Of a stretch of DNA of 64,000 nt, positions 20,778 through 52,461 are shown one piece after another; positions within the stretch are counted from its first letter, which is position 1, and the number at the start of each line of letters is the position of its first letter. The stretch lies in the NCBI GenBank assembly GCA_965204745.1, contig OZ242010.1:5355264-5419263 (forward strand), in the 5' to 3' direction. A program made the translations under genes and the position numbers. Under the pieces are notes generated by a model. The model did not search any database, was not told where the DNA came from, and was given only the letters and a program-made list of their open reading frames with translations. The stretch is from Candidatus Latescibacterota bacterium. GTDB taxonomy: Bacteria; Latescibacterota; UBA2968.

Positions 20778-20842
20778 TGGTCGTGTGAACACCGCTAAAA
20801 CGCGCTTACAATGGCCCTGCGGTCACTTCAAAGGAGGAAGTC

Positions 20843-30410: not shown

Positions 30411-30571
30411 CTCGCACGCCTTCTCGCTTGACCACCGATCCCATCGTCATTTTACCGCTTGACAAACAATAGCGTAATTTTTAATTTTTCACCCATTCAC
30501 CATTGCGATTTTGAGCGCGAAGGAAAAGCCGCGCCCGGTCTGCGCGACAGCTTTTGCAAAGGAGGCTCCAG

Positions 30572-30760
30572 ATGATTACCGCCATTTTCAGCCGCTGTTT
30601 GAACCTCATTTGGTCCTATGTTTCCACCGTGAAAACTGACGTTCATATCGCCCATTCTCGTCTTGGTGTGTGCTTCTATTTTATTGCGAAACAGTCCGTT
30701 AGGCTGATCAGTACAGCCCCCCCCCCCCCCCCCCCCCCCTCGAGAAGAGAGTCAAAATGA
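30572..30760 (+). CDS. Upstream leader ORF (62 aa) ending ...STAPPPPPPPSRRESK; stop overlaps the giant gene ATG
   Basis: AAGGAGG (30559-30565) lies 6 nt before ATG 30572. The frame reads through the C23 tract as Ala-Pro7. TGA 30758-30760 overlaps ATG 30757-30759. Coding status is unproven. Confidence 0.4.
   Translation: MITAIFSRCLNLIWSYVSTVKTDVHIAHSRLGVCFYFIAKQSVRLISTAPPPPPPPSRRESK
30717..30739 (+). repeat. Homopolymeric C23 tract
   Basis: 23 consecutive C, ending 17 nt upstream of the giant ORF start. Consistent with the ORF-track translation (A + 7 P). Confidence 0.9.
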
Positions 30761-33700
30761 CATCCCGCTACGCTCATTTGTTAGCTATGGTCGCGCTGGT
30801 CGTGCTGATGGCATCGGGGCCGGCTTTTGCCCAAACCGACTACGACACGGACAACGACAACCTGATTGACGTCACCTCCTTGGCGCAACTCAATGCCATT
30901 CGCTGGGATCTCAATGGCGATGGTGCCATAGACGCAAGTGCCTCGACCAGCGATACGACCGCCTACAACGCCGCCTTTCCCAACGCCATGTCGGGCATGG
31001 GTTGCGCCGCTACCTGCACCGGCTACGAACTGATGAACAACCTCAACTTTGACGAGAACAGCGACAACGAAATCACCTCAGCAGACGCCACCTACTGGAA
31101 CAATGGCGCAGGCTGGGCGCCCATCGGCAACAGCGAGACGAAATACACCGGCAACTTCCACGGCAACGACAATACCATCTCCAACCTGTTTATCGACCGC
31201 TCTGCCGCCAACGACATCGGGCTGTTCGGCTTTGCCGAGGGCGGCACGATTCGCAATTTGAGTCTGGTGAACGCCGATGTGACCGGCTCTAGTTATACCG
31301 CAGTCCTTGTTGGCCAAGGCACCAGGCTCCAGCTCATGCACATCCGCGTTACCGGACAGGTCAGCGGGCTCAGCAATGGCGGTGGCTTGGTGGGCAGTCT
31401 GACGCACGGTAGCTCGACCATTACCGCCTGCGGTGCCGAGGTGGACGTCACTGGGCGCGGTAGCAGAACCTACTCTGATATAAGCTTCGGCGGTCTGGTA
31501 GGTGGCAACTCCGGCACGATAACCGCTAGCTATGCCACCGGCGCAGTCAGCAACGACAATGTTTACGTCGGCGGTCTGGTGGGCTTTCACGGCTCAAGTG
31601 CTGTCATACGCGCCAGCTATGCCACCGGCGCCGTTAGAGGCCAAACCTTATTCGGCGGCCTGGTCGGTATTGCTTTTGGGGGCGCGATAACCGCTAGCTA
31701 TGCCACCGGCGCCGTCAAGGGCACCGGCGCCGTCTCTTATATCGGCGGTCTGGTGGGCTTCAACAGTTCTACATCAATTACCTACAGCTACTACGATAGT
31801 ACCACCACCGGACAAAAAGACACCGGACGCGGCGCCCCTCAGACCACCGCCGGTCTCCAAAACCCCACGGATTATACCGGCATCTACGCCAACTGGAACC
31901 TGAACCTGGACGGGCAAACGGGCAACGACAATCCGTGGAGCTTTGGCACGACGAGTCAGTATCCGGTCTTGAAGTATGCCGGCATGGACACCGCCGCGCA
32001 ATTTAACGCGCAACGGGTGGGCAAGCCGACGGGTGTGATGGTGGCGGGGAAGACGGACACGCTGACCGTGACTTGGGGGTTAGTACGCAATGCAACCGGG
32101 TATAAGGTGCGGTGGAAATCAGGGATTCTGACTTACCCCACCTCTGATCTGGCGGCCGCCACGCGCGGGCAAGCCACTATCGGTAGCGTGCTCACCACGA
32201 CCTACGATATTTCTGGGCTGACCACAGGGACGACCTACACGGTTCAAGTCATCGCCACCCGCCTCAATGCAACCGACAGTGACCCTTCGGACGCAGTCAT
32301 GGTGACGCCGGCGACCACCAAGCCCACCAATGTGCGCGTGACGCCTGCGCCGGTCCAACTCATTGTGGATTGGACCAAGGCAACCGGCGCGACGGGGTAC
32401 AAGGTGCAGTGGAAGTCCGGTGGACAGACCTACAACACCTCTTCTCGCCAGGCGATGGTCTCTGGGGTGAACACCACGACCTACACGATAGAGGGCCTGA
32501 CTTTTGGCACGACCTACACTGTGCGCGTCACTGCTACCCTGGCAGGTGGGACCGATAGTGATCCCTCGGACGAGGTCGTGGGCACGCCCCTTAGAGGGCT
32601 GGACATGCCGACGGGTGTGATCGTGATGCCCAAAGTGGACACCTTGGACGTGCGCTGGACTGCGGTGAGCACTGCGACGGGGTACAAGGTGCAGTGGAAA
32701 CTCCACAGGCGGACCTACGATGTTTCGCGTCAGGTGGTCGTCACGGGGACGCGCTACGCGATCCCCAACTTGATCGCCGGGGCGTCCTATCTCGTGCGTA
32801 TCATTGCCACCAAGGCCGGTCTGCCCGAGAGTGCTCCCTCAACCGAGGTGCCCGGCGTTCCCTTGCTACGTAGCCCAATGGGTGTGATGGTGACAGCGGA
32901 TATGGACACGCTGACCGTGACTTGGAACGCCGTGGACAATGCAACCGGGTATAAGGTGCAGTGGAAATCAGGGAATCTGACTTATCCCACCGCCGATGTG
33001 GAGACCACCGCCTTGCGCGGGCAAGCTACAATCGCAGGCGGGAACACCACGACCCACAAAATTTCTGGGTTGACCGCAGGGACGACCTACACGATTCGCG
33101 TCATCGCCACGCACACCAATGTAGCCGATAGCGCTCCCTCTGTCGAGGTGCCCGGCGTTCCTTTGCTGGGCAAGCCGACTGTGATGGTGGCGGCGAAGAT
33201 GGACACGCTGACCGTGACTTGGAACGCCGTGGACGATGCAACCGGGTATAAGGTGCAGTGGAAATCAGGGAATCTGACTTACCCCACCGCCGATCTGGAT
33301 TCCGCCACGCGCGGGCAAGCCACCATCGCAGGCGGGAACACCACGACCCACAAAATCTCCGGTGTGACCGTCGGGACGCTCTACGCGGTTCGCGTCATCG
33401 CCACGAGCACCAATACCAATATCGCCGACAGCACGCCTTCGGAGGAAGTCATGGTGATGCCGGCGACAAACAGGCCCACCAATGTGCGCGTGACGCCGGG
33501 GACGACCCAACTCCTTGTGCGTTGGACCGAGGCAACCGGCGCGACGGGATACAAGGTGCAGTGGAAGTCCGGGCAACAGGCATACGACCCCTCTTCTCGA
33601 CAGGCGCAGGTCTCTGGGGTGAGCACCACGACCTACACGATAGAGAACCTGACGGTTAGCACGACCTACACGGTGCGCGTCATCGCTATCCTGTCAGGTG

Positions 33701-36700
33701 GGGTCGATAGCACGCCCTCGGACGAGGTCATGGGCACGCCCCCGGGGATCGATTACGACAGGGATGGCGATGGCCTCATCGACATTACGACGCTGGCACA
33801 ACTCAATGCCATCCGCTACGACATGGATGGCAACGGCGACGCTACCCACGCCGTTTATGCCGCCGCTTTTCCCAACCGCGATACCACCAGTAGCATCCGG
33901 ATGGGTTGCCCTTCCGGGACCTGCACCGGCTACGAACTGCTCAACAACCTCGACTTTTCAGGAGGTCAATGGACCAGCGGCGCGGGTTGGCTCCCTATTG
34001 GAGTGTGGGGGCGTAATTCGTGGGAGACTTACACTGGCACGTTCAAGGGCAATAACAAGACCATCTCCAACCTGTACATCAACCGTGGTGACGATATTGA
34101 TGTTGGGCTGTTTGGTCATGTCAGCGGCAACATTTCCGGTCTGGGGCTGAAAAATGTCGATGTAAGAGGCACCGACAATGTGGGTGGGTTGGTCGGTGAA
34201 CAGGAGGGTGGTCGCATACTGAGTTGTTTTGTCACGGGTCGCGTTGAGGGTTGGAGTACCGCCATTAGAACTACGGGCGGTTTGGTGGGTCGTTCAGGAG
34301 CTAACACCGTCATCGCGGCCAGCTATGCCAATGCTGAGGTCATCATGGATCTGGATGAAACTAATGCTTATGCCGGCGGTTTGGTGGGCTTCAAATCAAA
34401 TAGTTCTGAGATAATAGCGTCCTACGCCATCGGGCCGGTGACTGGTAGAAATGCAGGCGGTCTGATTGGGCATGGTGGTGCTGCTACTTCTTTTAGTTTG
34501 GCTAGCTATTCCACAGGGACAGTCACTGGGGGAGGCTACATAGGCGGATTTGTGGGGAGGTTAGGGGCGGGATCGTATAGCTATTGGGATACGGAAAGTA
34601 GCGATCTCTTATCCAGTGCTGGCGGCACGGGCCAGACCACCAGCGCGTTGCAGTCGGAAACGGACTACGACGGCATCTACGCCAGTTGGGATGTGGATGT
34701 CGATGGCAGGGTTGGCAATGACGATCCGTGGACCTTTGGCGCGGCGGATCAGTATCCGGTGTTGAAATATGCCGGCATGGATACCACCGCACAATTTGCA
34801 ATGCAACCGCCGGGCATTCCGACAAGTGTGACCGTGACGGTGCAAGCGGCCACTTTGGATGTGCGTTGGCGTGCGGCGAGTTATGCGACGGGGTACAAGG
34901 TGCAGTGGAAATCCGGCATGCAAAGCTACGACGCCTCGCGTGAGGGGATCGTCACGGGGACGCGCTACAATATCCCTAACTTGGCGGTTGGGACGACCTA
35001 CACAGTGCGTGTCATTGCCACCAAGACCGGTGCCCGCGATGGCCGGCCCTCAGCAGAGCAGACCGGCGTTATCTCCGTGCTGGGCAGTCCGACTGTGATG
35101 GTGGCGGCGAAGTTGGACACGTTGACCGTGACTTGGAATGTGGTGACCAGCGCAACCGGCTACAAGGTGCAGTGGAAATCGGGGTCAGAGACTTATCCCA
35201 ATGCCGATCTGGCGTCCGCCTTGCGCGGGCAAGCCACCATCGTAGGCGGGAGCACCACGACCTACAAAATCCCCAATGTGACCAGAGGGACAGCCTACAC
35301 GGTGCGCGTCATCGCCACGCGTACCAATGTAGCCGACAGTGCCCCCTCGGAGGAAGTAACCGGCGTTCCCGGGCTGGAACGCCCGACGGGTGTGGATGTG
35401 AGTGCGACGGTGGACACGCTGACCGTGACTTGGAATGTGGTGGACGATGCAACCGGGTATAAGGTGCAGTGGAAATCGGGGTCAGAGACTTATCCCAATG
35501 CCGATCTGGTGTCCGCCTTGCGCGGGCAAGCCACCCTCGTAGGCGGGAGCACCACGACCTACAAAATCCCCAATGTGACCACAGGGACGACCTACACGGT
35601 TCGCGTCATCGCCACGCGTACCAATGTAGCCGACAGTGCCCCCTCGGAGGAAGTAACCGTGCTGGTTAGCCCGACGGGTGTGATGGTGCGTGCGACGGTG
35701 GACACGCTGACCGTGACTTGGAATGCGGTGGACGATGCCACCGGGTATAAGGTGCAGTGGAAATCCGGGTCAGAGACTTATCCCAACGCCGATTCTCAGG
35801 CCGCCACGCACGGGCAAGCTACCATCTCTGACGGGGGCACCACGACCTACGATATTTCTGGGCTGACCGCAGGGACGACCTACACGGTTCGGATCATCGC
35901 CACGAGTACCAATAGCAATGTAGCCGACAGTGCCCCCTCGGCAGAGCAGACCGGCGTTCCCGTGCTGGGTAGCCCGGCTGTGATGGTGGCGGCGAAGGCG
36001 GACACGCTGACCGTGATGTGGAATGCGGTGGACGATGCCACCGGGTATAAGGTGCAGTGGAAGTCCGGGTCAGAGACTTATCCCAACGCCGATCTGGCGT
36101 TGGCCACGCACGGGCAAGCCACAATCGCTGGCGGGGGCACCACGACCTACAAAATTTCTGGGCTGACCGCAGGGACGACCTACACGATTCGCGTCATCGC
36201 CACGCGTACCAATGTAGCCGACAGTGCCCCCTCGGCAGAGCAGACCGGCGTTCCCGTGCTGGGTAGCCCGGCTGTGATGGTGCGTGCGAAGTTGGACACA
36301 CTGACCGTGACTTGGAATGTGGTGACCAACGCAACCGGGTATAAGGTGCAGTGGAAATCCGGGTCAGAGATTTATCCCACCTCCGATGAGCAGTCCGCCA
36401 CGCGCGGGCAAGCCACTATCGTAGGCGGGCGCACCACGACCTACAAAATTTCTGGGCTGACCAGAGGGACGACCTACACGGTTCGCGTCATCGCCACGCG
36501 TACCAATGTAGCCGACAGTGCCCCCTCGGCAGAGCAGACCGGCGTTCCCGTGCTGGGTAGCCCGGCTGTGATGGTGGCGGCGAAGGTGGACACGCTGACC
36601 GTGACTTGGAATGCGGTGGACGATGCCACCGGGTATAAGGTGCAGTGGAAATCCGGGTCAGAGATTTATCCCACTTCCGATGAGCAGTCCGCCACGCGCG

Positions 36701-42700: not shown

Positions 42701-45700
42701 GTGCCAACCGCCGCATCAGTGCCAGCTATTCTGCTGCGGCTGTGACGGCCGTAGGGAGTGGGGCCAATTTCTGGGTCGGTGGTCTGGTGGGGTGGCAGAA
42801 CGGCGGGACGATTATCGCGTCCTATGCGACGGGCGCGGTCACGGTTACTGGGAACGGCACGAAAGGCGGGTTGGTGGGGCGCCTCGAGAGCAGCGGTGAA
42901 GTGACGGCCAGCTATGCGACGGGTCAGGTCACGGGTGACGGCACGAAAGGCGGGTTGGTGGGTAGCACGGCTGGCACAGTGACCAATAGCTACTGGGACA
43001 GCGACCGGAGCGGCATTGCCGGGGGCAAGAGCACCAGCGATCTCCAGAGCCAGACCACCTACGGTGCCACCAGCAACGACACCTACTACGACTGGAACCT
43101 AAATGTGGACGGCGATACCAGCACGGGCGACGCAGTGGGCAAAGACGATCCGTGGACCTTTGGCGCGACAGATCAGTATCCGGTCTTGAAGTATGCCGGC
43201 ATGGACACCACCGCACAATTTAAGCTGCAACCCTCGGTAGTGATGTTGACCCTGATGCCCTCGACGATCTCGGAAAACAGTGGTGTTTCGACGGTGACGG
43301 CGACGCTGGTACACCCGTCGATCTCGGCGACGACGATCACGGTGCGCCCGGTGGCTGGTGCCTACACGGTGGGTTCGGATTCGACGATCACCATCGCGGC
43401 CGAGAGCACGACGAACGCGTCGGACACGGTGGTGATCACGGCCGTGGATAACACCCGAGACGAGCCTGCGCGCGACGTGCCCGTGTCCGGTGTGGCACGC
43501 AACGCCCAAGGCGCAGGCAGGGTGATCGAGGCGACATTGACGCTGACGGACGACGACTCTGCGCCCACAGCGACGTTGGCGGCGTCACCGTTGTCGATTT
43601 CGGAGAACCTCGGTGTTTCGACGATCACGGCGACGCTATCGCGTCCATCGAGCTCGGCAACGACGATCACAGTGCGCCCGGTGGCTGATGCTTATACCGT
43701 GGGGACGGATTCGACGATCACCATCGCGGCAGGGGACACGACAAACGCGTCGGACACGGTGGCGATCACGGCCGTGGACAACGCCCAAGACGCGCTTGAT
43801 CGCAACGCGACCGTGTCCGGTGTGTCGCGCAACGCCCATGGCGCGGGCAGTGTGACCGGGGTGACTTTGACGCTGACGGACGATGACGATGCGCCGGACG
43901 TGACGATGGTTGTGACGCCTGCGTCGATTTCAGAGAACGGCGCGATTTCGACGGTGACCGCGACCCTGTCTCACACGTCGAGCGATCCGACAACGATCAC
44001 GGTTTCCGTGCCTACATCATCCGACTACACATTGAGCACGGCGGACACGCTGATCGTCGCGGCGGGGCAAACGATGAGCGCGGGCACCGTGACGATCACG
44101 ACGGTGGACAACAGCATATCTTCGGGGAACAAGACGGTGACCGTGTCGAGTACGGTGGGCAACAGCGTGGGCACGGGATCGGTCACTGTTGCGACGCTGA
44201 CGATTAGCGATGACGAAGTGGCGCAGGTGACGTTGGTTTTATCTCCGGCGTCGATTGCGGAGACGGGCGCGGTTTCAACAGTAACGGCGACGCTAGATCG
44301 CGCCGCAACCGCGGCGACGACGATCACGGTTTCAGCGGAGGCTGTGCCTCCTGCGGTTGCGAATGACTTCACGCTATCGACCACGACCACGCTGACTATC
44401 GCGGCGGGTGTGACGACGAGCACGGGCGCCGTGACGATCACATCGGTGAACGACACGACCGATGCGCCGGACAAGGGCGTGACCGTGTCTGCAACGGTGG
44501 CAGGTGGCGATGGCGCGTCGCTATCGTCTGCCGTGACATTGACGATCACAGACGATGAGGCCGCGCCGACGGTGACGCTGTCGCTGTCACCCGCGTCGAT
44601 TTCGGAGGCGAGCGGTGTTTCGACGATCACGGCAACCCTGTCGCATCGGTCAAGCGCGGCAATGACGATCACAGTGCGCCCGGTGGCGGATGCCTACACG
44701 GTGGGGTCGGATTCGACGATCACCATCGCGGCCGGGAGCACGGCGAACGCGTCGGACACCGTGGTCATTACAGCGGTGAACAACACCCAAGACGAGCCTG
44801 ATCGCAACGAGACCGTGTCCGTTGTGGCACGCAACGCCCATAGCACGGGCAGTGTGACCGAGGCGACCTTGACGCTGGAGGACGATGACGCCGCGCCGGA
44901 CGTGATGTTGGCGCTGTCGCCCGCGTCCATCTCGGAGGACGGCGGTGTCTCGACGGTGACGGCGACGCTGACACACCCATCGAGTGAGGCGACGACGATC
45001 ACGGTGCGTCCGGTGGCGGATGCCTACACGGTGGGGATGGATTCGACGATCGCCATCGCGGCCGGGGATACGACGAACGCGGCGGACACGGTGGCACTCA
45101 CCGCCGTGGACAACGACATAGACGCGGCAGACAACGCCGCGATGGTGCAGGCCGCTGTGGAGAACGACCACGGCGAGGGCAACGTGCAGGCTGTGACGCT
45201 GACGATCACCGATGACGACGAGGCGGCGATTGAGGTGTCGGCGGTGACCTCGACGATCGTCAGGCTCCGCACGACAGAGGCGGGCAGGGCAGCGACCTTC
45301 ACGGTCACGCTCGCCACCGAACCAACCGGGGACGTGGCACTCTCGGTGGTCAGTTCAAACACGGATGAAGGCACTGTATCGCCCTCGGTGCTGACCTTCA
45401 CGCCATCAGACTGGAACACGGCACAAACCGTGACCGTGACCGGGCAGGACGATGCCCCTGCCAATTCCGTCGATGGCAACCAGAACTATACGGTCACCCT
45501 TTCGGTGAACCAGACGGACACGCAGGACGACAACTATGACGCGCTTTCCAATATCAGCGTGTACATGGTCAACCTCGATAACGATTTCGGCTTGGACATC
45601 AGCGCGGTGACCGGGCAGGCGACAGAGGCCGGCGCCTCGGCGACCTTCACGGTGGCCCTGCTGACGCAACCCACGGCGGCGGTGACGATTTCGGTGACGA

Positions 45701-48183
45701 GCCAAGACCCGAGCGAGGGGCGGGTTGAGCCTGCGGTACTGACCTTCACGACGTCAGGCTGGAACACGGCACAAACCGTGACCGTGACCGGGCAGGACGA
45801 CACCATCGACGACGGGGACATCCCCTGGACGGTGCGACTCGCCCTGTCAAGCGACGATACCGGCTACAACACCCTTGCAGACGACGTTCAAGTGACGACG
45901 ACCGACGATGAAGATGCGCCGACCGTGACGTTGGTGCTGATGCCCTCGTCCATCTCGGAAAACGCCGAGGTTTCCACGGTGAGCGCGACCCTGTCGCATC
46001 CATCGAGCGCGATCACGACGATCACGGTCTCTGCTACGCCTGTGTCCCCTGCAACTGCGGACGACTTCACGCTATCGAATGCAGACACGCTGATCATCGC
46101 GGCGACTGCTACGACGAGCACGGGCACCGTGACGATCACATCGGTGAACGATACGACCGATGCGCCGGCCAAGCGTGTGACCGTGTCCGGTGTGGCGAAC
46201 AACGACCAAGGCGCAGGCAGTGTGACCGACGAGACTTTGGTGCTAACGGACGACGACGAGGCACCGACCGTGACATTGGTGCTGTCGCCCTCGTCCATCT
46301 TGGAAAACGGCGGTGTTTCGACGATCACGGCAACCCTGTCGCATGCGTCGAGCGCGGCAATGACGATCACGGTGCGCCCGGTGGCGGGTGCTTATACCGT
46401 GGGGTCGGATTCGACGATCATCATCGCGGCCGGGAGTACGGCGAACGCGACGGATACCGTGGTCATTACAGCGGTGAACAACACCCAAGACGCGCCTGAT
46501 CGCAGCGAGACCGTGTCCGTTGTGGCACGCAACGCCCATAGCACGGGCAGTGTGACCGAGGCGACCTTGACGCTGGAGGACGATGACGCCGCGCCGGATG
46601 TGACGTTGGCACTGTCGCCCGCGTCCATCTCGGAGGCCGGCGGCGTGAGCACGGTGAGCGCGACGCTGACACACCCATCGAGTGAGGCGACGACGATCAC
46701 GGTGCGCCCGGTGGCGGATGCCTACACGGTGGGGTCGGATTCGACGATCACCATCGCGGCCGGGGATACGACGAACGCGACGGACACGGTGGCACTCACC
46801 GCCGTGGACAACGACATAGACGCATCAGACAACGCCGCGATGGTGCAGGCCGCTGTGGAGAACGACCACGGCGAGGGCAACGTGCAGGCTGCGACGCTGA
46901 CGATCACCGATGACGACGAGGCGGCGATTGAGGTGTCGCCGATGACCTCGACGATCGTCAGGCTTGAGACGACAGAGGCGGGCAGGGCAGAGACCTTCAC
47001 GGTCACGCTCGCCACCGAGCCGACGGGGGACGTGGCACTCTCGGTGGTCAGTTCAAACACGGATGAAGGCACTGTATCGCCCTCGGTGCTGACCTTCATG
47101 CCATCAGACTGGAACACGGCGCAAACCGTGACCGTGACCGGGCAGGACGATGCCCCCACCAATTCGGTCGATGGCAACCAGAACTATACGGTCACCCTTT
47201 CGGTGAACCAGACGGATACGCAGGACGCCAACTATGACGCGCTTTCCAATATCAGCGTGTACATGGTCAACCTCGATAACGATTCCGGCCTGGACATAAG
47301 CGCGGTAACCGGGCAGGCGACAGAGGCAGGCGGCTCGGCGACCTTCACGGTGGCCCTGCTTTCGCAACCCTCGGCGGCGGTGACGGTTTCGGTGACGAGC
47401 CAAGACCCGAGCGAGGGGCGGGTTGAGCCTGCGGTGCTGACCTTCACGACGTCAGGCTGGAACACGGCACAAACCGTGACCGTGACCGGGCAAGACGATA
47501 CCATCGACGACGGGGACATCCCCTGGACGGTGCGACTCGCCCTATCAAGCGACGATACCGGCTACAACACCCTTGCAGACGACGTTCAAGTGACGACGAC
47601 CGACGATGAAGATGCGCCGACCGTGACGTTGGTGCTGATGCCCTCGTCCATCTCGGAAAACGGCGAGGTTTCCACGATCACGGCGACCCTGTCGCATCCA
47701 TCGAGCGCGATCACGACGATCACGGTCTCTGCTACGCCTGTGTCCCCTGCGACTGCGAGCGACTTCACGCTATCGAGTGCAGACACCCTGATCATCGCGG
47801 TGACGACCACAACGAGCACGGGCACCGTGACGATCACCGCAGAGGACAACAACGACCAGGCAGACGAGAAGACGGTCACGGTGTCTGCAACCGCAAACAA
47901 CGCCCAAGGCATCACCGCACCCTCGGATGTGACCCTGACCATTACCGATGACGAAACACCGAGTGCCAACTTGGATGTGGATGGCAATGGCGAGGTGAGG
48001 CTGTTCTCGGATATAATCCTGATCATTCGATACGTCCTCTTCTTCCGGGAAGAGGCCCTCGTCAGAGGGAACGTCATCGAGCCAGATGCCACGCGCAAGA
48101 CCCCGCAAACCATTACCCCCTACCTCGACACGTTGGTCGGTCAGAACATTCTCGATGTGGATGGCGATGGCGATGTGAGGTGA
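30757..48183 (+). CDS. Giant secreted multi-repeat surface protein, 5,808 aa as read
   Basis: One uninterrupted frame. Signal peptide ...GPAFA|Q. Five super-modules, each with a dockerin/EF-hand-like segment (DYDSDGDGLI.I..LAQL.AIR.DLNGDG) and a GLUG-motif region (GGLVG...SYATG repeats). 24 Fn3 units with the ATGYKVQWKSG core. 14 Calx-beta/cadherin-like units of the ...TLTITDDD.AP type. C-terminal dockerin-like segment DVDGNGEVRLFSDIILIIRYVL. Confidence 0.9.
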   Translation: MTSRYAHLLAMVALVVLMASGPAFAQTDYDTDNDNLIDVTSLAQLNAIRWDLNGDGAIDASASTSDTTAYNAAFPNAMSGMGCAATCTGYELMNNLNFDENSDNEITSADATYWNNGAGWAPIGNSETKYTGNFHGNDNTISNLFIDRSAANDIGLFGFAEGGTIRNLSLVNADVTGSSYTAVLVGQGTRLQLMHIRVTGQVSGLSNGGGLVGSLTHGSSTITACGAEVDVTGRGSRTYSDISFGGLVGGNSGTITASYATGAVSNDNVYVGGLVGFHGSSAVIRASYATGAVRGQTLFGGLVGIAFGGAITASYATGAVKGTGAVSYIGGLVGFNSSTSITYSYYDSTTTGQKDTGRGAPQTTAGLQNPTDYTGIYANWNLNLDGQTGNDNPWSFGTTSQYPVLKYAGMDTAAQFNAQRVGKPTGVMVAGKTDTLTVTWGLVRNATGYKVRWKSGILTYPTSDLAAATRGQATIGSVLTTTYDISGLTTGTTYTVQVIATRLNATDSDPSDAVMVTPATTKPTNVRVTPAPVQLIVDWTKATGATGYKVQWKSGGQTYNTSSRQAMVSGVNTTTYTIEGLTFGTTYTVRVTATLAGGTDSDPSDEVVGTPLRGLDMPTGVIVMPKVDTLDVRWTAVSTATGYKVQWKLHRRTYDVSRQVVVTGTRYAIPNLIAGASYLVRIIATKAGLPESAPSTEVPGVPLLRSPMGVMVTADMDTLTVTWNAVDNATGYKVQWKSGNLTYPTADVETTALRGQATIAGGNTTTHKISGLTAGTTYTIRVIATHTNVADSAPSVEVPGVPLLGKPTVMVAAKMDTLTVTWNAVDDATGYKVQWKSGNLTYPTADLDSATRGQATIAGGNTTTHKISGVTVGTLYAVRVIATSTNTNIADSTPSEEVMVMPATNRPTNVRVTPGTTQLLVRWTEATGATGYKVQWKSGQQAYDPSSRQAQVSGVSTTTYTIENLTVSTTYTVRVIAILSGGVDSTPSDEVMGTPPGIDYDRDGDGLIDITTLAQLNAIRYDMDGNGDATHAVYAAAFPNRDTTSSIRMGCPSGTCTGYELLNNLDFSGGQWTSGAGWLPIGVWGRNSWETYTGTFKGNNKTISNLYINRGDDIDVGLFGHVSGNISGLGLKNVDVRGTDNVGGLVGEQEGGRILSCFVTGRVEGWSTAIRTTGGLVGRSGANTVIAASYANAEVIMDLDETNAYAGGLVGFKSNSSEIIASYAIGPVTGRNAGGLIGHGGAATSFSLASYSTGTVTGGGYIGGFVGRLGAGSYSYWDTESSDLLSSAGGTGQTTSALQSETDYDGIYASWDVDVDGRVGNDDPWTFGAADQYPVLKYAGMDTTAQFAMQPPGIPTSVTVTVQAATLDVRWRAASYATGYKVQWKSGMQSYDASREGIVTGTRYNIPNLAVGTTYTVRVIATKTGARDGRPSAEQTGVISVLGSPTVMVAAKLDTLTVTWNVVTSATGYKVQWKSGSETYPNADLASALRGQATIVGGSTTTYKIPNVTRGTAYTVRVIATRTNVADSAPSEEVTGVPGLERPTGVDVSATVDTLTVTWNVVDDATGYKVQWKSGSETYPNADLVSALRGQATLVGGSTTTYKIPNVTTGTTYTVRVIATRTNVADSAPSEEVTVLVSPTGVMVRATVDTLTVTWNAVDDATGYKVQWKSGSETYPNADSQAATHGQATISDGGTTTYDISGLTAGTTYTVRIIATSTNSNVADSAPSAEQTGVPVLGSPAVMVAAKADTLTVMWNAVDDATGYKVQWKSGSETYPNADLALATHGQATIAGGGTTTYKISGLTAGTTYTIRVIATRTNVADSAPSAEQTGVPVLGSPAVMVRAKLDTLTVTWNVVTNATGYKVQWKSGSEIYPTSDEQSATRGQATIVGGRTTTYKISGLTRGTTYTVRVIATRTNVADSAPSAEQTGVPVLGSPAVMVAAKVDTLTVTWNAVDDATGYKVQWKSGSEIYPTSDEQSATRGQATIAGGSTTTYKISNVTTGTAYTVRVIATRTNVADSAPSEEVTVLVSPTGVMVAAKVDTLTVTWNAVDDATGYKVQWKSGAATYPNTDSQAATHGQATISDGGTTTYDISGLTAGTTYTVRIIATSTNSNVADSAPSAEQTGVPVLGSPAVMVAAKVDTLTVTWNVVDDATGYKVQWKSGSATYPTADLALATRGQATIAGGGTTTYKISGLTTGTTYTIRVIATRTNVADSAPSDEVMVTLATNKPTNVNVRVTPGIAQLIVRWTEATGATGYKVQWKSGGQSYNTSSRQETVSGGSTTTYTIENLTFGTPYTVRVTATLTGGMDSTPSDEVVGTPQAINYDSDGDGLIAIETLAQLHAIRWDLNGDGAVDASATSSDTTAYNAAFPGRDTTSNVRMGCPSGTCTGYELLNNLNFDTDGSGSVTSDDTYPNWVPIGNYSATFKGNNKTISNLHINRGGWYHVGLFSQVGGNISGLGLKSVNVRGGHQVGGLVGNQWGGRILGCYVTGRVEGTGSYVGGLVGHSTGNNTVIAVSYTNAVVSGGRLQEGVGGLVGILYTTVIASYAIGPVTGNSRVGGLVGRLAITSGHSPLVGSVSTSYATGTVTRLNQFSSNLGGLIGSKRHNLVSHSYWDRESSGFSTSAGGTGKTTSELQSQTSYNDIYASWNVNVDGSPGNDNPWTFGAADQYPVLKYAGMDTTAQFAMQAPGIPTSVTVTVQADTLDVRWRAASYATGYKVQWKAGGQNYAVSRQAITTDTRYKIANLLAGTTYTVRVIATKTGARDGRPSAEQTGVPVLGSPTVMVAAKADTLTVTWNAVTNATGYKVQWKSGAETYPAADEESATHGQATIAGGRTTTYDISGLTAGTAYAIRVIATRTNVADSAPSAEQTGVPVLDSPTGVDVSATVDTLTVTWNVVDDATGYKVQWKSGSETYPNADSQSATRGQATISGGGTTTHKISGLTTGTTYTVQVIATHTTTAGNSAPSAAVMVTSATTKPTNVRVTPGPLRFIVAWTEATGATGYKVQWKSGGQSYNTATRQVVVSMNTRTATIVNLTIGTIYTVRVTATLAGGIDSDPSDEVMVTIQGINYDSDGDGLIAIETLAQLHAIRWDLNGDGAIDASASTSDTTAYNAAFPNRDTTSNVRMGCPSGTCTGYELLNNLDFDENGDDEITSADATYWNNGDGWLPIGTDAAKYTGDFKGNGYTIDNLTINRPSVGEVGLFGNADTASRIESVGITNASVAGGEYAGALVGALRGIVVACYSTGNVSATTRVAGGLVGWTPNAITSSYSTASVSGPEHVGGLLGSSQGGSVTNSYSTGTVTGTGSSPLIGGLIGSGTGGTASYWDTQTSGCTSGGSNGCTTSAGGGGVTGQTTSALQSPTGYTLIFSTWNANLDGQAGNDDPWAFGKTDQYPVLKYAGMDTTVQYNLQPPGIPTSVTVTPQRDTLDVRWTAASYATGYKVQWKSGMQSYDTSRQGTVTGTRYKISNLIGGTTYTVRVIATKTGAPDGTPSAEQTGVSVLGSPTVMVAAKVDTLTVTWNAVSNATGYKVQWKSGSETYPAADEESATHGQATIADGRATTYDISGLTAGMAYTVRVIATSTNSNVADSAPSAEQTGVPLLGSPTVMVAATVDTLTVTWNVVDDATGYKVQWKSGSETYPNADLAAATHGQATIAGGGTTTYDISGLTAGTTYAIRVIATRTNVADSAPSDAVMVTLATNKPTNVRVTPGPVQLIVRWSEATGATGYKVQWKSGVQSYNTTTRQVVVSMNTRTATIVNLTFGTPYTVRVLATLSGGGDSEPSDEVMGTPQGIDYDSDGDGLINIETLAQLHAIRWDLNGDGIVADSDAANYNAAFPSRDTTSNVRMGCPSGTCTGYELITNLNFDQNNDGEITSADATYWNANAGWQPIGTYTGTFKGNNKTISNLYINRGGQNDVGLFVDLTGTVSGLGLRNVDVRGNLAVGGLTGNQAGGAITGCYVTGRVRGSGSFGLGGLVGHSHTGANRRISASYSAAAVTAVGSGANFWVGGLVGWQNGGTIIASYATGAVTVTGNGTKGGLVGRLESSGEVTASYATGQVTGDGTKGGLVGSTAGTVTNSYWDSDRSGIAGGKSTSDLQSQTTYGATSNDTYYDWNLNVDGDTSTGDAVGKDDPWTFGATDQYPVLKYAGMDTTAQFKLQPSVVMLTLMPSTISENSGVSTVTATLVHPSISATTITVRPVAGAYTVGSDSTITIAAESTTNASDTVVITAVDNTRDEPARDVPVSGVARNAQGAGRVIEATLTLTDDDSAPTATLAASPLSISENLGVSTITATLSRPSSSATTITVRPVADAYTVGTDSTITIAAGDTTNASDTVAITAVDNAQDALDRNATVSGVSRNAHGAGSVTGVTLTLTDDDDAPDVTMVVTPASISENGAISTVTATLSHTSSDPTTITVSVPTSSDYTLSTADTLIVAAGQTMSAGTVTITTVDNSISSGNKTVTVSSTVGNSVGTGSVTVATLTISDDEVAQVTLVLSPASIAETGAVSTVTATLDRAATAATTITVSAEAVPPAVANDFTLSTTTTLTIAAGVTTSTGAVTITSVNDTTDAPDKGVTVSATVAGGDGASLSSAVTLTITDDEAAPTVTLSLSPASISEASGVSTITATLSHRSSAAMTITVRPVADAYTVGSDSTITIAAGSTANASDTVVITAVNNTQDEPDRNETVSVVARNAHSTGSVTEATLTLEDDDAAPDVMLALSPASISEDGGVSTVTATLTHPSSEATTITVRPVADAYTVGMDSTIAIAAGDTTNAADTVALTAVDNDIDAADNAAMVQAAVENDHGEGNVQAVTLTITDDDEAAIEVSAVTSTIVRLRTTEAGRAATFTVTLATEPTGDVALSVVSSNTDEGTVSPSVLTFTPSDWNTAQTVTVTGQDDAPANSVDGNQNYTVTLSVNQTDTQDDNYDALSNISVYMVNLDNDFGLDISAVTGQATEAGASATFTVALLTQPTAAVTISVTSQDPSEGRVEPAVLTFTTSGWNTAQTVTVTGQDDTIDDGDIPWTVRLALSSDDTGYNTLADDVQVTTTDDEDAPTVTLVLMPSSISENAEVSTVSATLSHPSSAITTITVSATPVSPATADDFTLSNADTLIIAATATTSTGTVTITSVNDTTDAPAKRVTVSGVANNDQGAGSVTDETLVLTDDDEAPTVTLVLSPSSILENGGVSTITATLSHASSAAMTITVRPVAGAYTVGSDSTIIIAAGSTANATDTVVITAVNNTQDAPDRSETVSVVARNAHSTGSVTEATLTLEDDDAAPDVTLALSPASISEAGGVSTVSATLTHPSSEATTITVRPVADAYTVGSDSTITIAAGDTTNATDTVALTAVDNDIDASDNAAMVQAAVENDHGEGNVQAATLTITDDDEAAIEVSPMTSTIVRLETTEAGRAETFTVTLATEPTGDVALSVVSSNTDEGTVSPSVLTFMPSDWNTAQTVTVTGQDDAPTNSVDGNQNYTVTLSVNQTDTQDANYDALSNISVYMVNLDNDSGLDISAVTGQATEAGGSATFTVALLSQPSAAVTVSVTSQDPSEGRVEPAVLTFTTSGWNTAQTVTVTGQDDTIDDGDIPWTVRLALSSDDTGYNTLADDVQVTTTDDEDAPTVTLVLMPSSISENGEVSTITATLSHPSSAITTITVSATPVSPATASDFTLSSADTLIIAVTTTTSTGTVTITAEDNNDQADEKTVTVSATANNAQGITAPSDVTLTITDDETPSANLDVDGNGEVRLFSDIILIIRYVLFFREEALVRGNVIEPDATRKTPQTITPYLDTLVGQNILDVDGDGDVR

Positions 48184-48185
48184 GA

Positions 48186-48344
48186 CTGTTCTCGGATATA
48201 ATCCTGATCATTCGATACGTCCTCTTCTTCCGGAACGAGGCCCTCGTCAGAGGGAACGTCATCGAGCAAAATGCTACGCGCACGACCGCTCAAGAAATTG
48301 AACCCTACATCCGAAGCCTCTATCCCGACTCCCACTTCCAATGA
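48186..48344 (+). other. Out-of-frame continuation of the giant ORF: second dockerin-like segment
   Basis: In the +2 frame it reads LFSDIILIIRYVLFFRNEALVRGNVIEQNATRTTAQEIEPYIRSLYPDSHFQ*. This is nearly identical to the segment encoded at 47998 ff. It is displaced by a 5-nt insertion (TGAGA, 48181-48185). Confidence 0.7.
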
Positions 48345-48545
48345 AAGCCTGTTCTCTGACCGCCACAGATGAAGATGGCGATGAGAACACCCTGAGTTTC
48401 TTCCTCACCATCAGCGCGAATCTGATGCCATCCTTTGCCGATGCGAGTGTGGAATACGCGGAAGCAAGAGATCGAATCCCTGATCCTACCGCAAGCGAGC
48501 CGTGGCGATGAACCGCTGACCCCCGAGTTGATTTTGTTTTTTGGC
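48341..48545 (+). pseudogene. Fragment of a cadherin/He_PIG-like repeat-protein gene (frameshifted, truncated)
   Basis: Frame 1: MKACSLTATDEDGDENTLSFFLTISANLMPSFADASVEYAEA. Frame 2 continues EIESLILPQASRGDEPLTPEL, matching the LP.A.GG..PLTY.L pattern of putative-Ig repeats. The ATG overlaps the stop of the corrected giant ORF (ATGA). Confidence 0.5.
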
Positions 48546-48582: not shown

Positions 48583-48651
48583 CGACTGTCCCAGTTGCTC
48601 AAAGCGAGAGCCTATCCTGCGATAGGGCTTGATTTTTTCGATAAACCGCCC
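48583..48651 (-). mobile_element. IS5-family transposase 3'-end remnant
   Basis: Encodes GRFIEKIKPYRRIGSRFEQLGQS, resembling the conserved IS5/IS4 C-terminal block (...RRIATRYDKL...). About 85% identical over roughly 65 nt to 52105-52170. Confidence 0.55.
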
Positions 48652-52407: not shown

Positions 52408-52410
52408 TCG

Positions 52411-52461
52411 CGCCTCGCCTTTGGGCCGGGTCGAGGCGGGGCAACTGACAACTGACAACTG
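52411..52461 (-). repeat. Right copy of the 37-nt direct repeat plus a (ACAACTG)x3 heptamer run
   Basis: cgcctcgcctttgggccgggtcgaggcggggcaactg acaactg acaactg. Confidence 0.9.

What the first reader, a model, noticed from the sequence alone, without database searches (positions are those of the whole stretch)
30757..48344. 17.4-kb gene with hierarchical architecture: five dockerin-headed GLUG super-modules, 24 Fn3, 14 Calx-beta-like units, terminal dockerin
Seen: an uninterrupted frame runs 30757-48183 and starts with a Sec signal peptide (…LMASGPAFA|Q).
Five super-modules begin at about 30832, 33745, 37720, 39958 and 42130. Each contains, in order:
- an opening DYD.D.DGLI.I..LAQL.AIR.DLNGDG segment (EF-hand/dockerin-like Ca loops);
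- a Cys pair (MGCPSGTCTGYEL);
- 330-400 aa of GGLVG...(A/S)SYATG repeats (GLUG motif, beta-helix-like);
- the invariant DPW.FG..DQYPVLKYAGMDT.
Modules 1-4 are followed by 6, 10, 4 and 4 Fn3-like units of about 98 aa (ATGYKVQWKSG...TYTVRVIAT).
From ~43231 to ~47955 come 14 Ig-like units of ~110 aa, of two kinds:
- ISENGGVSTVTATLSHPSS.TTITV...TLT.TDDD.AP;
- TEAG.SATFTV.L..QP...V...V.S.D.SEG.V.P..LTF....WNTAQTVTVTGQDD.
The end (47974 onward) is dockerin-like.
Established: these module types occur in giant bacterial adhesins and cellulosome-like assemblies.
Inference: a surface or secreted adhesin or scaffold. I cannot place the repeated internal dockerin-like heads in front of every GLUG module in a described family. 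The window shows no cohesin partner, dedicated secretion system (T1SS/T5SS/T9SS) or cell-wall/PEP-CTERM sorting signal, so the anchoring mechanism is open.
Basis: partly seen in the sequence, partly recalled or inferred. Interest (0 to 1): 0.8.

Follow-up and report, generated by a model that had tools for sequence, protein, structure and literature searches.

The report
Giant beta-helix adhesin-like surface protein
A real 17.4-kb gene of an uncultured, probably sponge-associated bacterium encodes a 594-kDa secreted fibre of five beta-helix binding modules, 24 spacer domains, a 14-domain stalk and a dockerin-type tail; it belongs to a large, uncharacterised protein family.

Summary
ORF 30757-48183 (5808 aa) is open, has a Sec-type signal peptide, five head-to-tail GLUG super-modules, 24 Fn3 units (6/10/4/4) and 14 Ig-like units (10+4).

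- The "dockerin-like heads" are not separate dockerins. Head, GLUG rungs and the DPW...QYPVLKY tail fold as one compact beta-helix domain (AF2 pLDDT 96, pTM 0.94). Its best solved matches are 3N6Z and the beta-helix of S. pneumoniae IgA1 protease.
- The Ig units miss Pfam Calx-beta, although their relatives reach it.

The C-terminal module is a dockerin-type double F-hand. A profile of its family hits solved dockerins (1OHZ, E = 2.7e-5). In this window a 5-nt insertion (48181-48185) throws its second half out of frame.

The super-module occurs in at least 2563 database proteins. Giant multi-module relatives are common in Dehalococcoidia and other MAGs, some from named sponge-symbiont genera.

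Best reading: a Ca-dependent, multivalent adhesin or matrix fibre held at its C-terminus. No member of the family has been studied, so function is inferred.

An in-frame C23 (poly-proline) tract lies in an upstream ORF whose stop overlaps the giant gene's start. A paralog shares both gene ends. Together these hint at a variable gene family.

The parts
30419..30756 (+). Conserved upstream leader shared with the paralog in L079. It includes a TTGACA...TAATTT stretch and an AAAGGAGG ribosome-binding site.
   Evidence: 86% identical over 303 nt to L079 2008-2308. The sigma-70 consensus scan found no promoter. Rfam found nothing.
30572..30760 (+). Upstream ORF of 62 codons whose TGA stop overlaps the giant gene's ATG (ATGA).
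   Evidence: Translations. The same ORF and the same ATGA overlap occur in L079, where it was called as a 56-aa gene. There are 6 synonymous and 11 non-synonymous codon differences, so there is no evidence of selection on the peptide.
30717..30739 (+). C23 homopolymer, in frame within the upstream ORF, where it adds six proline codons relative to L079.
   Evidence: It is the only homopolymer longer than 9 nt in the window. L079 has CCC at the same place, and the length difference of the segment is 18 nt, which preserves the frame.
30757..48183 (+). Giant ORF of 5808 aa. The mature protein is 594 kDa with pI 4.4.
30757..30831 (+). Sec-type signal peptide (aa 1-25, ...GPAFA|Q).
   Evidence: Read from the sequence. 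Nearly the same signal peptide is found in paralog-family members P0365-P0368 and L079.
30832..31992 (+). GLUG beta-helix super-module 1 (Ca-loop and Cys-pair N-cap, rungs, DPW...QYPVLKY C-cap).
   Evidence: (Glug 26.4 bits).
31993..33744 (+). Fn3 array 1 (6 units).
33745..34785 (+). GLUG beta-helix super-module 2.
   Evidence: Glug 18.5 bits, below the cut-off; 65% identical to module 3.
34786..37719 (+). Fn3 array 2 (10 units). It contains the longest exact internal repeat, about 200-249 nt.
37720..38796 (+). GLUG beta-helix super-module 3, the one that was modelled.
   Evidence: Glug 44.7 bits. AF2 pLDDT 96, pTM 0.94. Foldseek 3N6Z E = 3.8e-7 and 6XJA E = 6.8e-4.
38797..39957 (+). Fn3 array 3 (4 units).
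39958..40968 (+). GLUG beta-helix super-module 4.
   Evidence: (26.1 bits).
40969..42129 (+). Fn3 array 4 (4 units).
42130..43209 (+). GLUG beta-helix super-module 5.
   Evidence: 17.9 bits, below the cut-off; 67% identical to module 3.
43210..47955 (+). Stalk of 14 Ig-like beta-sandwich units: 10 type A (Calx-beta-like) and 4 type B (LapA/fn3_6-like). It includes a 1.9-kb tandem duplication at 89% identity.
   Evidence: The AF2 model of the close homolog P0125 has pLDDT 94-98 over one B and one A unit. Fold matches are generic Ig and NCX1 CBD12.
47974..48180 (+). C-terminal dockerin-type module: the first 58-aa repeat plus the Ca loop of the second repeat, in frame.
48181..48185 (+). 5-nt insertion (TGAGA) that creates the stop codon and shifts the frame.
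   Evidence: DNA alignment with L079, 95% identical on both sides. The intact protein end is seen in P0125 and P0365-P0373.
48186..48344 (+). Rest of the second dockerin-type repeat, out of frame (LFSDIILIIRYVLFFRNEALVRGNVIEQNATRTTAQEIEPYIRSLYPDSHFQ*).
48341..48511 (+). Small downstream ORF (56 aa) whose ATG overlaps the unshifted stop (ATGA). Only its first ~14 codons match L079, where the ORF encodes a 64-aa peptide that reads, by eye, as a two-loop dockerin-like peptide.
   Evidence: gene call in L079.
48611..48636 (+). Terminator-like hairpin followed by a T run.
   Evidence: This is a consensus match only.

Best explanation
The gene encodes a Sec-exported, acidic, 594-kDa fibre-like surface or matrix protein. 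The host is an uncultured bacterium whose GroEL is closest to Gemmatimonadota and Latescibacterota MAGs, and it is probably a marine-sponge symbiont.

Shown:
- Architecture, N to C: signal peptide; five ~360-aa GLUG right-handed beta-helix domains separated by 6, 10, 4 and 4 Fn3 domains; 14 Ig-like beta-sandwich domains; a dockerin-type double F-hand module.
- Each beta-helix domain is capped at its N-end by DxDxDG-type Ca-loop motifs plus a Cys-x4-Cys loop, and at its C-end by a Trp/Tyr-rich DPW...QYPVLKY element.

Inferred:
- The C-terminus is the cell-proximal end. In this lineage the dockerin-type module would hold the protein on a cohesin-like or other Ca-dependent partner. Dehalococcoidia relatives carry a C-terminal transmembrane helix at the same position.
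- The Ig stalk and Fn3 arrays act as rigid spacers. By a rough count of domains they would span well over 100 nm.
- The five beta-helices are 40-59% identical in their rungs and 59-83% identical in their N-caps. They would be displayed as multivalent, mutually different binding surfaces for host-matrix or microbial glycans or proteins.
- In this particular allele a 5-nt insertion removes the second half of the dockerin-type module. Anchoring may therefore be weakened or lost, unless the insertion is a sequence error.
For: ORF and repeat counts.

One-domain super-module resembling the non-catalytic beta-helix of IgA1 proteases. The role of that helix in substrate gating is described in PMC7695701.

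No catalytic signature: there is no HExxH and no peptidase, lyase or hydrolase Pfam hit. The family's invariant residues are mostly Gly, aromatic residues and Cys. The rungs are the least conserved part: 49% against 71% and 64% for the caps.

Fn3 and Ig calls.

C-terminal module:
- 3150 cluster representatives carry it, and it lies at the extreme C-terminus in 96 of 147.
- The family profile hits solved type I dockerins, 1OHZ_B at E = 2.7e-5, and also 4FL4, 2CCL and 4UYQ.
- Relatives pass Pfam Dockerin_1: 27.0 and 30.5 bits against 22.9.
- Some proteins with this module carry an N-terminal Pfam Cohesin domain: P0394 at 34.7 bits and P0437 at 25.9 bits.

C-terminal transmembrane anchors in multi-module relatives L013, L014 and L054.

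Independent assemblies with the same kind of architecture:
- L002 has GLUG/Fn3 ... Calx-beta ... Dockerin.
- L003 is collinear with window 37050-42235.
- Giant ORFs with up to 11 heads occur in complete MAG chromosomes.

Ecological context: Fn3- and cadherin-domain genes are enriched in sponge-symbiont MAGs and are read there as attachment factors (PMC8163846).
Against: - No member of this family has been studied experimentally, and no ligand is known.
- No cohesin or other partner gene is in the window or in the fetched loci. The genome itself could not be scanned.
- The dockerin-type repeats are 58 aa apart rather than the canonical ~22-aa repeats with a short linker. AF2 gave only low confidence for this module (pLDDT 38-67).
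- The window's own sequence fails the Pfam Dockerin_1 and Calx-beta cut-offs.
- If the host is diderm, as its nearest named relatives would suggest, a Sec signal alone does not explain how a 594-kDa protein crosses the outer membrane.
- The module is frameshifted in this allele.
Confidence: 0.55

Rival explanations
1. Released extracellular matrix or biofilm scaffold rather than a cell-anchored adhesin. The fibre is secreted free and cross-links cells, or host matrix, through its five beta-helices. In this allele that would be because the anchoring module is truncated.
For: The 5-nt insertion removes half of the dockerin-type module. No anchor partner or sorting signal is in the window. Fold hits of the Ig units include the Vibrio biofilm scaffold RbmA.
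Against: The sequence downstream of the insertion is still 96% or more identical to intact paralogs and has no further damage, so the truncation is recent or an error. The module is kept intact at the C-terminus of many family members.
Confidence: 0.15
2. Phase-variable and recombination-diversified surface family. The gene would be one of several paralogs with conserved 5' and 3' ends and shuffled internal cassettes. Each would be switched or tuned through the poly-C (poly-proline) tract in the overlapping upstream ORF. The purpose would be to vary host- or phage-exposed surfaces rather than to bind one ligand.
For: The paralog L079 lies in the conspecific 5.28-Mb contig. It shares the leader, upstream ORF and signal peptide (82-86% nt) and the C-terminal region (86-95% nt). 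Its five beta-helices sit back to back with no Fn3. Family members P0365-P0372 share both protein ends and differ in module content. C23 stands against CCC at the same site, in frame, inside an upstream ORF with an ATGA overlap.
Against: Only two copies of the leader were found. There are no read-level data on tract length. The upstream-ORF peptide shows no purifying selection. A frame-preserving tract length has a one-in-three chance. A poly-C or poly-G sequencing or assembly artefact is not excluded.
Confidence: 0.12
3. Cellulosome-like enzymatic assembly. The beta-helix modules would be catalytic polysaccharide lyases or hydrolases acting on sponge glycosaminoglycans, carried on a dockerin-bearing polyprotein.
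For: The right-handed beta-helix is the fold of pectate and alginate lyases and of phage depolymerases, which appear far down the hit lists. A dockerin-type tail is present. Sponge symbionts are enriched in glycan-degrading enzymes (PMC8163846).
Against: Matches to lyases are poor (E > 0.1, TM about 0.2), whereas the significant matches are the non-catalytic IgA1-protease helix and 3N6Z. There is no CAZy-type Pfam hit. Conservation is concentrated in the caps, not in a groove on the rungs.
Confidence: 0.1
4. Decaying gene or partly artefactual assembly. Repeat collapse or expansion, the C23 tract and the 3' frameshift would reflect assembly or sequencing problems, or pseudogenisation.
For: Internal repeats reach 90% identity over 1.2 kb, with exact repeats of 200-249 nt. 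There is a frameshift at 48181. There is a C23 tract immediately upstream. No exact ortholog was found to check the copy numbers.
Against: A 5808-codon open frame is present where about 184 stops are expected by chance. The domain order is regular. L003 is collinear over 5.2 kb in an independent assembly. Multi-module relatives lie in complete long-read chromosomes.
Confidence: 0.08

Closest known systems
GLUG beta-helix domain of M26 IgA1 metalloproteases (S. pneumoniae IgA1P N-terminal domain, PDB 6XJA/6XJB) and the Bacteroides ovatus protein BACOVA_03286 (PDB 3N6Z)
   Same: Same fold and the same GLUG rung motif. 3N6Z aligns over 337 of its 339 residues (E = 3.8e-7, TM 0.53-0.57). The IgA1P helix matches at E = 7e-4. 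In IgA1P this helix is a non-catalytic, independently folding domain that moves to admit the substrate (PMC7695701).
   Different: There is no protease, G5 or LPXTG part here, and no HExxH. The domain is repeated five times. Sequence identity to these structures is only 18-20%. The conserved N-cap and C-cap motifs were not compared with the solved structures.
Giant Ca-dependent repeat adhesins of Gram-negative bacteria (LapA, MpIBP, SiiE, BapA type)
   Same: Very large, acidic proteins with long arrays of Ig-like (Calx-beta/LapA-type) units ending in ...DDD, and ligand-binding modules at the far end. Relatives of the type-B units hit Pfam LapA.
   Different: Those adhesins use a C-terminal RTX/T1SS signal and an N-terminal retention module. 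Here there is an N-terminal Sec signal, no GGxGxD repeat and no T1SS genes. The binding modules are beta-helices.
Cohesin-dockerin systems (type I dockerins such as C. thermocellum Xyn10B, PDB 1OHZ) and non-cellulosomal dockerins
   Same: Duplicated Ca-loop plus helix (F-hand) with the D-x-D/N-G-D/N-G...D...L..RY.. signature at the extreme C-terminus of many different secreted proteins. The profile-level match is E = 2.7e-5. Some family members also carry a cohesin domain.
   Different: Each F-hand is followed by a ~35-aa extension (...ATRTTA.EIE.Y...), so the repeats are 58 aa apart. The window's own sequence is below the Pfam cut-off (13.7 against 22.9 bits). No partner is known, and the module is frameshifted here.
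Fn3- and cadherin-domain 'attachment' proteins enriched in sponge-symbiont genomes (Robbins et al. 2021, PMC8163846)
   Same: Fn3-rich secreted proteins in the same kinds of organisms (Chloroflexota, Acidobacteriota, Latescibacterota, Gemmatimonadota), read there as adhesion factors and reported as laterally transferred.
   Different: That work counts domains per genome. The word dockerin does not occur in that paper, and a full-text search found no sponge-symbiont paper that treats the GLUG motif.
Beta-helix adhesins of Gram-positive bacteria (L. reuteri SRRP binding region 5NXK, S. pneumoniae PfbA 3ZPP)
   Same: A right-handed beta-helix is used as a binding rather than a catalytic module.
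   Different: The structural matches are only weak (E = 0.35-1.4, TM about 0.2). Those proteins have a single helix and LPXTG anchoring.

Membership tests
GLUG motif (Pfam PF07581) | HMM score at or above the gathering cut-off of 20.5 bits | tested here: met
   Modules 1, 3 and 4 score 26.4, 44.7 and 26.1 bits. Modules 2 and 5 are below the cut-off (18.5, 17.9) but are 65-67% identical to module 3.
GLUG beta-helix domain (as in 3N6Z and the IgA1P N-terminal domain) | Right-handed beta-helix fold superposable on the solved structures | tested here: met
   AF2 pLDDT 96, pTM 0.94. Foldseek 3N6Z E = 3.8e-7, TM 0.53-0.57; 6XJA E = 6.8e-4.
M26 IgA1 metalloprotease (ZmpA/IgA1P) | Zn-metalloprotease domain with HExxH | tested here: not met
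   No HExxH in 5808 aa. No peptidase Pfam hit. NCBIfam ZmpA scores 23.8 bits against a cut-off of 3000.
Fibronectin type III (PF00041) | HMM score at or above 25 bits per protein, with repeated stretches | tested here: met
   164, 275, 127 and 126 bits, with 6, 10, 4 and 4 stretches.
Calx-beta (PF03160) | HMM score at or above 27 bits | tested here: not met
   No hit at E <= 0.01 over the whole Ig region and none at E <= 10 for two type-A units. Relatives at 47-62% identity do pass (35.9-79.7 bits).
Calx-beta (PF03160) | Calx-beta-type beta-sandwich fold | tested here: inconclusive
   The units are modelled with confidence (pLDDT 94-98). Fold matches are generic Ig sandwiches, with NCX1 CBD12 (3US9, E = 1.5e-7) among ciliary Ig, RbmA and others.
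Type I dockerin (PF00404) | HMM score at or above 22.9 bits | tested here: not met
   The window's C-terminus scores 13.7 bits, E = 0.074. Relatives P0375 (27.0) and the L002 ORF (30.5) pass.
Type I dockerin (PF00404) | Duplicated F-hand (Ca loop plus helix) related to solved dockerins | tested here: met
   The family profile (A3) hits 1OHZ_B at E = 2.7e-5, 4FL4_A at 6e-5, 2CCL_B at 8e-5 and 4UYQ_B at 7e-4, ahead of calmodulins. The second F-hand is out of frame in the window.
Type I dockerin (PF00404) | Two ~22-residue repeats joined by a short linker within a ~70-aa module | tested here: not met
   The repeats are 58 aa apart and the module is about 120 aa.
Cohesin-dockerin system | A cohesin-bearing partner encoded by the same organism | not testable with these tools
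   None is in the window or the fetched loci. The 5.28-Mb conspecific contig could not be scanned. Cohesin occurs in other proteins that carry this C-terminal module.
Dockerin as the 'head' of each GLUG module | Head region related to dockerins | tested here: not met
   The head profile hits only EF-hand proteins weakly (best E = 0.0073) and no dockerin. hhalign against the C-terminal family gives probability 11.5%. Pfam Dockerin_1 gives E = 0.16.
RTX/T1SS giant adhesin (LapA type) | C-terminal RTX nonapeptide repeats or T1SS signal, with adjacent T1SS genes | tested here: not met
   No GGxGxD motif. An N-terminal Sec signal is present. The neighbours are an M14 peptidase, a DUF4097 protein, a SAM hydroxide adenosyltransferase and a 224-aa ABC ATPase.
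Autotransporter (T5SS) or T9SS cargo | C-terminal beta-barrel, or a T9SS C-terminal sorting domain | tested here: not met
   No such Pfam hit in any segment. The C-terminus is helical.

The most novel reading that the evidence does not exclude
The gene is one copy of a contingency-type family. A conserved promoter, leader and signal-peptide block and a conserved dockerin-type 3' block would flank beta-helix, Fn3 and Ig cassettes that are shuffled between paralogs. Each copy would be gated by a slippage-prone poly-C tract. That tract encodes poly-proline in an upstream ORF whose stop overlaps the main start codon. The result would be phase-variable, recombination-diversified host-contact fibres in a sponge symbiont.
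Probability: 0.12. Interest if true: 0.8.

Novelty: new variant of a known kind. Interest (0 to 1): 0.5.

Why it matters
Pfam models the GLUG motif only as a 28-residue repeat. Here it turns out to be part of a well-defined domain of about 360 residues with conserved caps. That domain occurs in at least 2563 database proteins and is strongly multiplied in Dehalococcoidia and other MAGs, some from named sponge-symbiont genera. It often sits in proteins of 4000-7000 residues or more.

If these fibres mediate attachment to host matrix or to other microbes, they are a concrete and testable candidate for how sponge symbionts hold their place in the host. The literature so far treats that question by counting domains.

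The dockerin-type C-terminal module has 3150 cluster representatives, and some of those proteins also carry cohesin. This points to a non-cellulosomal docking system that has not been explored.

For genome annotation, the result gives boundaries for two unannotated modules: the beta-helix super-module and the 120-aa dockerin-type tail.

Tried and rejected
Exact look-ups. I tried the window's neighbours (48753-49553, 28507-29979, 24528-25355) and family member P0368, to reach the orthologous locus in conspecific assemblies. None was on record. The copy numbers, the C23 tract and the insertion therefore could not be checked in a second assembly of the same locus.

Leader motif. A scan of JGI metagenome contigs with GACAGCTTTTGCAAAGGAGG gave four unrelated chance matches.

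Direct sequence search. A super-module against PDB sequences found nothing. The Ig units gave only insignificant protocadherin matches.

Heads as dockerins: rejected.

Other families considered and rejected: IgA1-protease-like enzyme, RTX adhesin, autotransporter and T9SS cargo.

Leader RNA. Rfam found no family, and the sigma-70 scan found no promoter.

Cohesin. A weak search with two cohesin sequences over all fetched DNA found nothing. This is low-sensitivity and is not evidence of absence.

Literature. Searches for GLUG with sponge symbionts, and for dockerin or cohesin with sponge symbionts, returned nothing relevant.

C-terminal structure. The AF2 model of this module was of low confidence because the alignment was shallow there, so no structural test of the dockerin fold was possible.

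Full report

Yes. The ORF listing returns one ORF, 30757..48183 on the + strand, 5808 aa, starting at ATG. With the base composition of this stretch, a random frame of that length would contain about 184 stop codons.

The translation begins MTSRYAHLLAMVALVVLMASGPAFA|QTDYD. I read this by eye as an SPase-I signal peptide; no predictor was available.

Motif counts:
- Five heads, three reading DYD and two reading NYD, at aa 28, 999, ~2324, ~3070 and 3794.
- Five Cys pairs (MGC....CTGYEL).
- Five QYPVLKYAGMDT tails.
- 24 ATGYKVQWK motifs, grouped 6, 10, 4 and 4.

The C-terminal third holds 14 units of about 110 aa. Ten are type A (SISENGG...TLTxTDDD) and four are type B (TEAG...WNTAQTVTVTGQDD), in the order A6-B2-A3-B2-A1. 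The mature protein is 594 kDa with pI 4.4.

**2. Domain calls**

- Pfam confirms fn3, with the same 6/10/4/4 stretches (E from 1e-37 to 2e-83).
- Glug passes its cut-off of 20.5 bits in modules 1, 3 and 4 (26.4, 44.7, 26.1). Modules 2 and 5 score 18.5 and 17.9 bits.
- Calx-beta gives no hit anywhere in the window.
- Type-B units touch fn3_6 just below its cut-off (24.8 against 26.4 bits).
- The heads give only marginal EF-hand and dockerin scores (E = 0.02-0.16).
- The C-terminus gives Dockerin_1 at 13.7 bits against a cut-off of 22.9.
- NCBIfam adds only a sub-threshold ZmpA match over the GLUG rungs.

**3. The super-module is one domain, and the head is its cap**

A search with module 3 (head to tail, 366 aa) found 2563 proteins at E <= 0.001 among the 8000 candidates that were scored. 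Most of the best hits cover 96-100% of the query.

Many hits are single-module proteins of 500-600 aa. They consist of a signal peptide, the DYDxDxDGLI head, the Cys pair, the GLUG rungs and the DPWxFG..QYPxL tail, followed by varied C-terminal parts.

With a 76-sequence alignment, AlphaFold2 folds the whole unit as one compact domain: mean pLDDT 96.0, pTM 0.94, mostly beta-strands, with short helices in the head and tail.

The best solved matches are:
- 3N6Z, the Bacteroides ovatus 'putative IgA1 protease' BACOVA_03286, aligned over 337 of its 339 residues (E = 3.8e-7, TM 0.53-0.57).
- The beta-helix of the S. pneumoniae and G. haemolysans IgA1 metalloproteases (E from 7e-4 to 4e-2).

Pectate lyases, tailspikes and the like follow only at E > 0.1 and TM about 0.2. 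In the viral structure library one unnamed protein, H9YQW5, matches at TM 0.71.

A profile of the heads alone hits no dockerin; its best PDB match is an EF-hand protein at E = 0.007. It is also not related to the C-terminal dockerin-type family (hhalign probability 11.5%).

So the 'dockerin-like heads' are N-terminal caps that carry DxDxDG-type loops. I infer that these loops bind Ca2+; this was not tested.

Among the window's five modules the head and tail are more conserved than the rungs: 71% and 64% mean identity against 49%. The same holds across homologs.

**4. Who has it**

The best 75 loci are overwhelmingly Dehalococcoidia or Chloroflexota MAGs, with many paralogs per genome. The rest are Acidobacteriota (Candidatus Versatilivorator, Bryobacterales, Terriglobia), Latescibacterota, Binatia and Gammaproteobacteria (Candidatus Oxydemutator, Azotimanducaceae). 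Oxydemutator thiolithooxidans is a described sponge symbiont (PMC11685487).

In these loci the ORF that contains the match is often giant. Several are longer than 6000-7000 aa and still run off the 21-kb locus. They carry up to 11 head motifs per ORF.

Multi-module beta-helix polyproteins are therefore a recurrent type. Several lie in MAG records titled as single complete chromosomes, which argues against the architecture being an assembly artefact in principle.

Some complete Dehalococcoidia examples (L013, L014, L054) end in a hydrophobic helix followed by RRRA, that is, a C-terminal membrane anchor.

**5. The Ig-like units**

A search with one B plus one A unit found 303 proteins. Many of them carry precomputed Pfam Calx-beta and LapA domains. 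Re-scanning five relatives confirmed Calx-beta at 35.9-73.4 bits and LapA at 31.7-47.5 bits.

The close homolog P0125 (78% identity) was modelled. Its B and A units are confident beta-sandwiches, with pLDDT 94-98. The fold matches are generic tandem Ig domains, with NCX1 and CALX CBD12 among them.

'Calx-beta-like' is therefore reasonable for type A by transitivity. It is not shown for the window's own sequence.

**6. The C-terminal module and the frameshift**

P0125, and the L002 ORF discussed below, show the intact end. It consists of two 58-aa repeats, each a Ca loop (DVDGxG), a helix (..SDIILIIRYVLFF..) and a second segment (..ATRTTAQxIEPY...), ending ...YIRSLYPDSHFQ.

Alignment with L079 shows 95% identity and a 5-nt insertion, TGAGA, at window 48181-48185. 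The insertion creates the stop codon. The remaining 159 nt continue in another frame to 48344 without further damage. The finding's end coordinate thus marks the original stop.

A full HMMER search with the intact 131-aa module found 3150 cluster representatives at E <= 0.001. The module lies within 8 residues of the C-terminus in 96 of 147.

Nine representatives share 88% or more identity in this module, in proteins of 332-2967 aa.

A 32-sequence profile hits solved type I dockerins ahead of calmodulins: 1OHZ_B at E = 2.7e-5, 4FL4_A, 2CCL_B and 4UYQ_B. Each repeat aligns to one dockerin F-hand.

Relatives pass Pfam Dockerin_1 (P0375 at 27.0 bits, the L002 ORF at 30.5). Two proteins that carry the module have an N-terminal Pfam Cohesin domain (P0394 at 34.7 bits, P0437 at 25.9 bits).

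AF2 confidence for this part was low, pLDDT 38-67.

I call it a dockerin-type double F-hand with extended repeats. It is not a canonical dockerin.

**7. Organism, context and paralogs**

The window is chromosomal. It carries gmk, coaBC, dnaB, radA, groEL, RNase R and other housekeeping genes.

Its GroEL is identical to proteins on 22 contigs, among them a 5.28-Mb contig (ERZ25068394 contig_1). Named relatives at 94-95% identity are Gemmatimonadota and Latescibacterota MAGs. Several of those contigs come from records named PANK22-1_SAMN..._METAG. I believe, from memory only, that these are sponge metagenomes.

L080 and L081 are 97-98.7% identical to window 2.8-25 kb, so they are the same species.

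The same 5.28-Mb contig carries a paralog, L079, 1.6 Mb away from its groEL. The paralog has:
- the same leader, upstream ORF and signal peptide (82-86% nt identity);
- five beta-helices back to back with no Fn3;
- six A units plus B units;
- the intact C-terminal module.

Family members P0365-P0372 likewise share the signal peptide or the C-terminus but differ in module content. No database protein is more than about 81% identical to the window's protein over a long stretch.

L003, from another sample, is collinear with window 37050-42235 at 87.6% over 5.2 kb. L002 has the series GLUG/Fn3 ... Calx-beta ... dockerin-type tail, broken into several gene calls.

**8. Leader**

A 62-codon upstream ORF (30572-30760) is preceded by AAAGGAGG. 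It ends with a TGA that overlaps the giant gene's ATG (ATGA). L079 has the same arrangement.

The C23 tract (30717-30739) lies inside this upstream ORF and is in frame. It adds six proline codons where L079 has CCC.

Codon differences between the two copies are 6 synonymous and 11 non-synonymous. The peptide itself is therefore probably not what is conserved.

This could be a slippage-prone or stalling switch, or it could be a sequencing artefact. I could not decide between these.

**9. Mechanism**

Shown: the domain order, the fold of the beta-helix and Ig units, the family relationship of the tail to dockerins, and the different C-terminal anchors in relatives.

Inferred: the C-terminus is the cell-proximal end, the Ig and Fn3 arrays are spacers, and the five diverged beta-helices are binding modules displayed multivalently.

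The nearest studied relative of the helix, in IgA1 protease, is a non-catalytic domain that moves on substrate binding (PMC7695701).

Sponge-symbiont genomes are enriched in Fn3- and cadherin-domain genes, which are read as attachment factors and reported as laterally transferred (PMC8163846).

How a 594-kDa protein would cross an outer membrane, if the host is diderm, remains unexplained.

**10. Rivals**

The rivals are a free matrix scaffold, a variable contingency family, a catalytic cellulosome-like polyprotein, and a decaying or artefactual gene. They are weighed in the rival section. None is excluded, and the first two are compatible with the main reading.

**11. Novelty**

The building blocks are known (GLUG, Fn3, Ig, dockerin-type), and similar polyproteins sit unannotated in many public MAGs. 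The literature searches found no paper that treats this family in sponge symbionts. The closest studied relative is the single, non-catalytic helix of IgA1 protease.

I rate the finding as a new variant of a known kind (giant modular surface adhesins), of moderate interest. A low-probability but more interesting reading is a phase-variable, cassette-shuffled family.

Noticed in passing
window 30572-30760 and 30717-30739: A 62-codon upstream ORF has a stop that overlaps the giant gene's start (ATGA). It contains the window's only long homopolymer, C23. The tract is in frame and adds six proline codons where the paralog L079 has CCC. It could be a translational or phase switch, or a poly-C artefact.
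   Followed up: partly
window 48181-48185: A 5-nt insertion (TGAGA) relative to the paralog L079 truncates the last 53 codons of the gene. The sequence after it is otherwise intact.
   Followed up: yes
window 48341-48511; L079 11137-11331: A small ORF starts with an ATG that overlaps the original stop of the giant gene (ATGA). In L079 it encodes a 64-aa peptide that reads, by eye, as a two-loop dockerin-like peptide (..DEDGDGNVNFADFLTFASKFG..CDGDGQIDSADCF..). In the window only the first ~14 codons are the same and the rest has been replaced.
   Followed up: partly
window 30179-30415, 52335-52411 (+), 58713-58872 (-); L079 11399-11690 (-): A short dispersed intergenic repeat (80-175 nt matches at 83-96% identity) lies upstream of the giant gene, at two other places in the window, and downstream of the paralog. 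It could be a REP- or MITE-like element.
   Followed up: partly
window 19054-21352: Four tandem paralogous ORFs of 165-176 aa have no Pfam match and lie in the window's lowest-GC stretch (0.50). Conspecific contigs L080-L083 carry three to five copies, and L080 has a DDE transposase inserted there.
   Followed up: no
L079 about 9990-10010: The paralog in the 5.28-Mb contig is itself split by a frameshift inside a type-B unit (gene calls of 2557 and 379 aa). This could be a long-read error or a second damaged copy.
   Followed up: partly
L013, L014, L054 (Dehalococcoidia MAG OY282494.1): Multi-module GLUG polyproteins of 3400-6700 aa end in ...PWLLIGIIAVIALAIIGGGIALLMRRRA, a C-terminal transmembrane anchor. 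That is a different anchoring device on the same kind of protein.
   Followed up: partly
model of window 37720-38817 against the BFVD library: An unnamed viral protein (H9YQW5, 527 aa) matches the whole super-module at TM 0.71 and 28% identity. Phaeovirus proteins (FirrV-1-A51, EsV-1-160) and a phage 'putative IgA1 protease' also match.
   Followed up: no
window 52567-54285 (-): An ORF with a PcfJ-like domain, a family usually seen on conjugative elements, lies 4 kb downstream of the giant gene.
   Followed up: no
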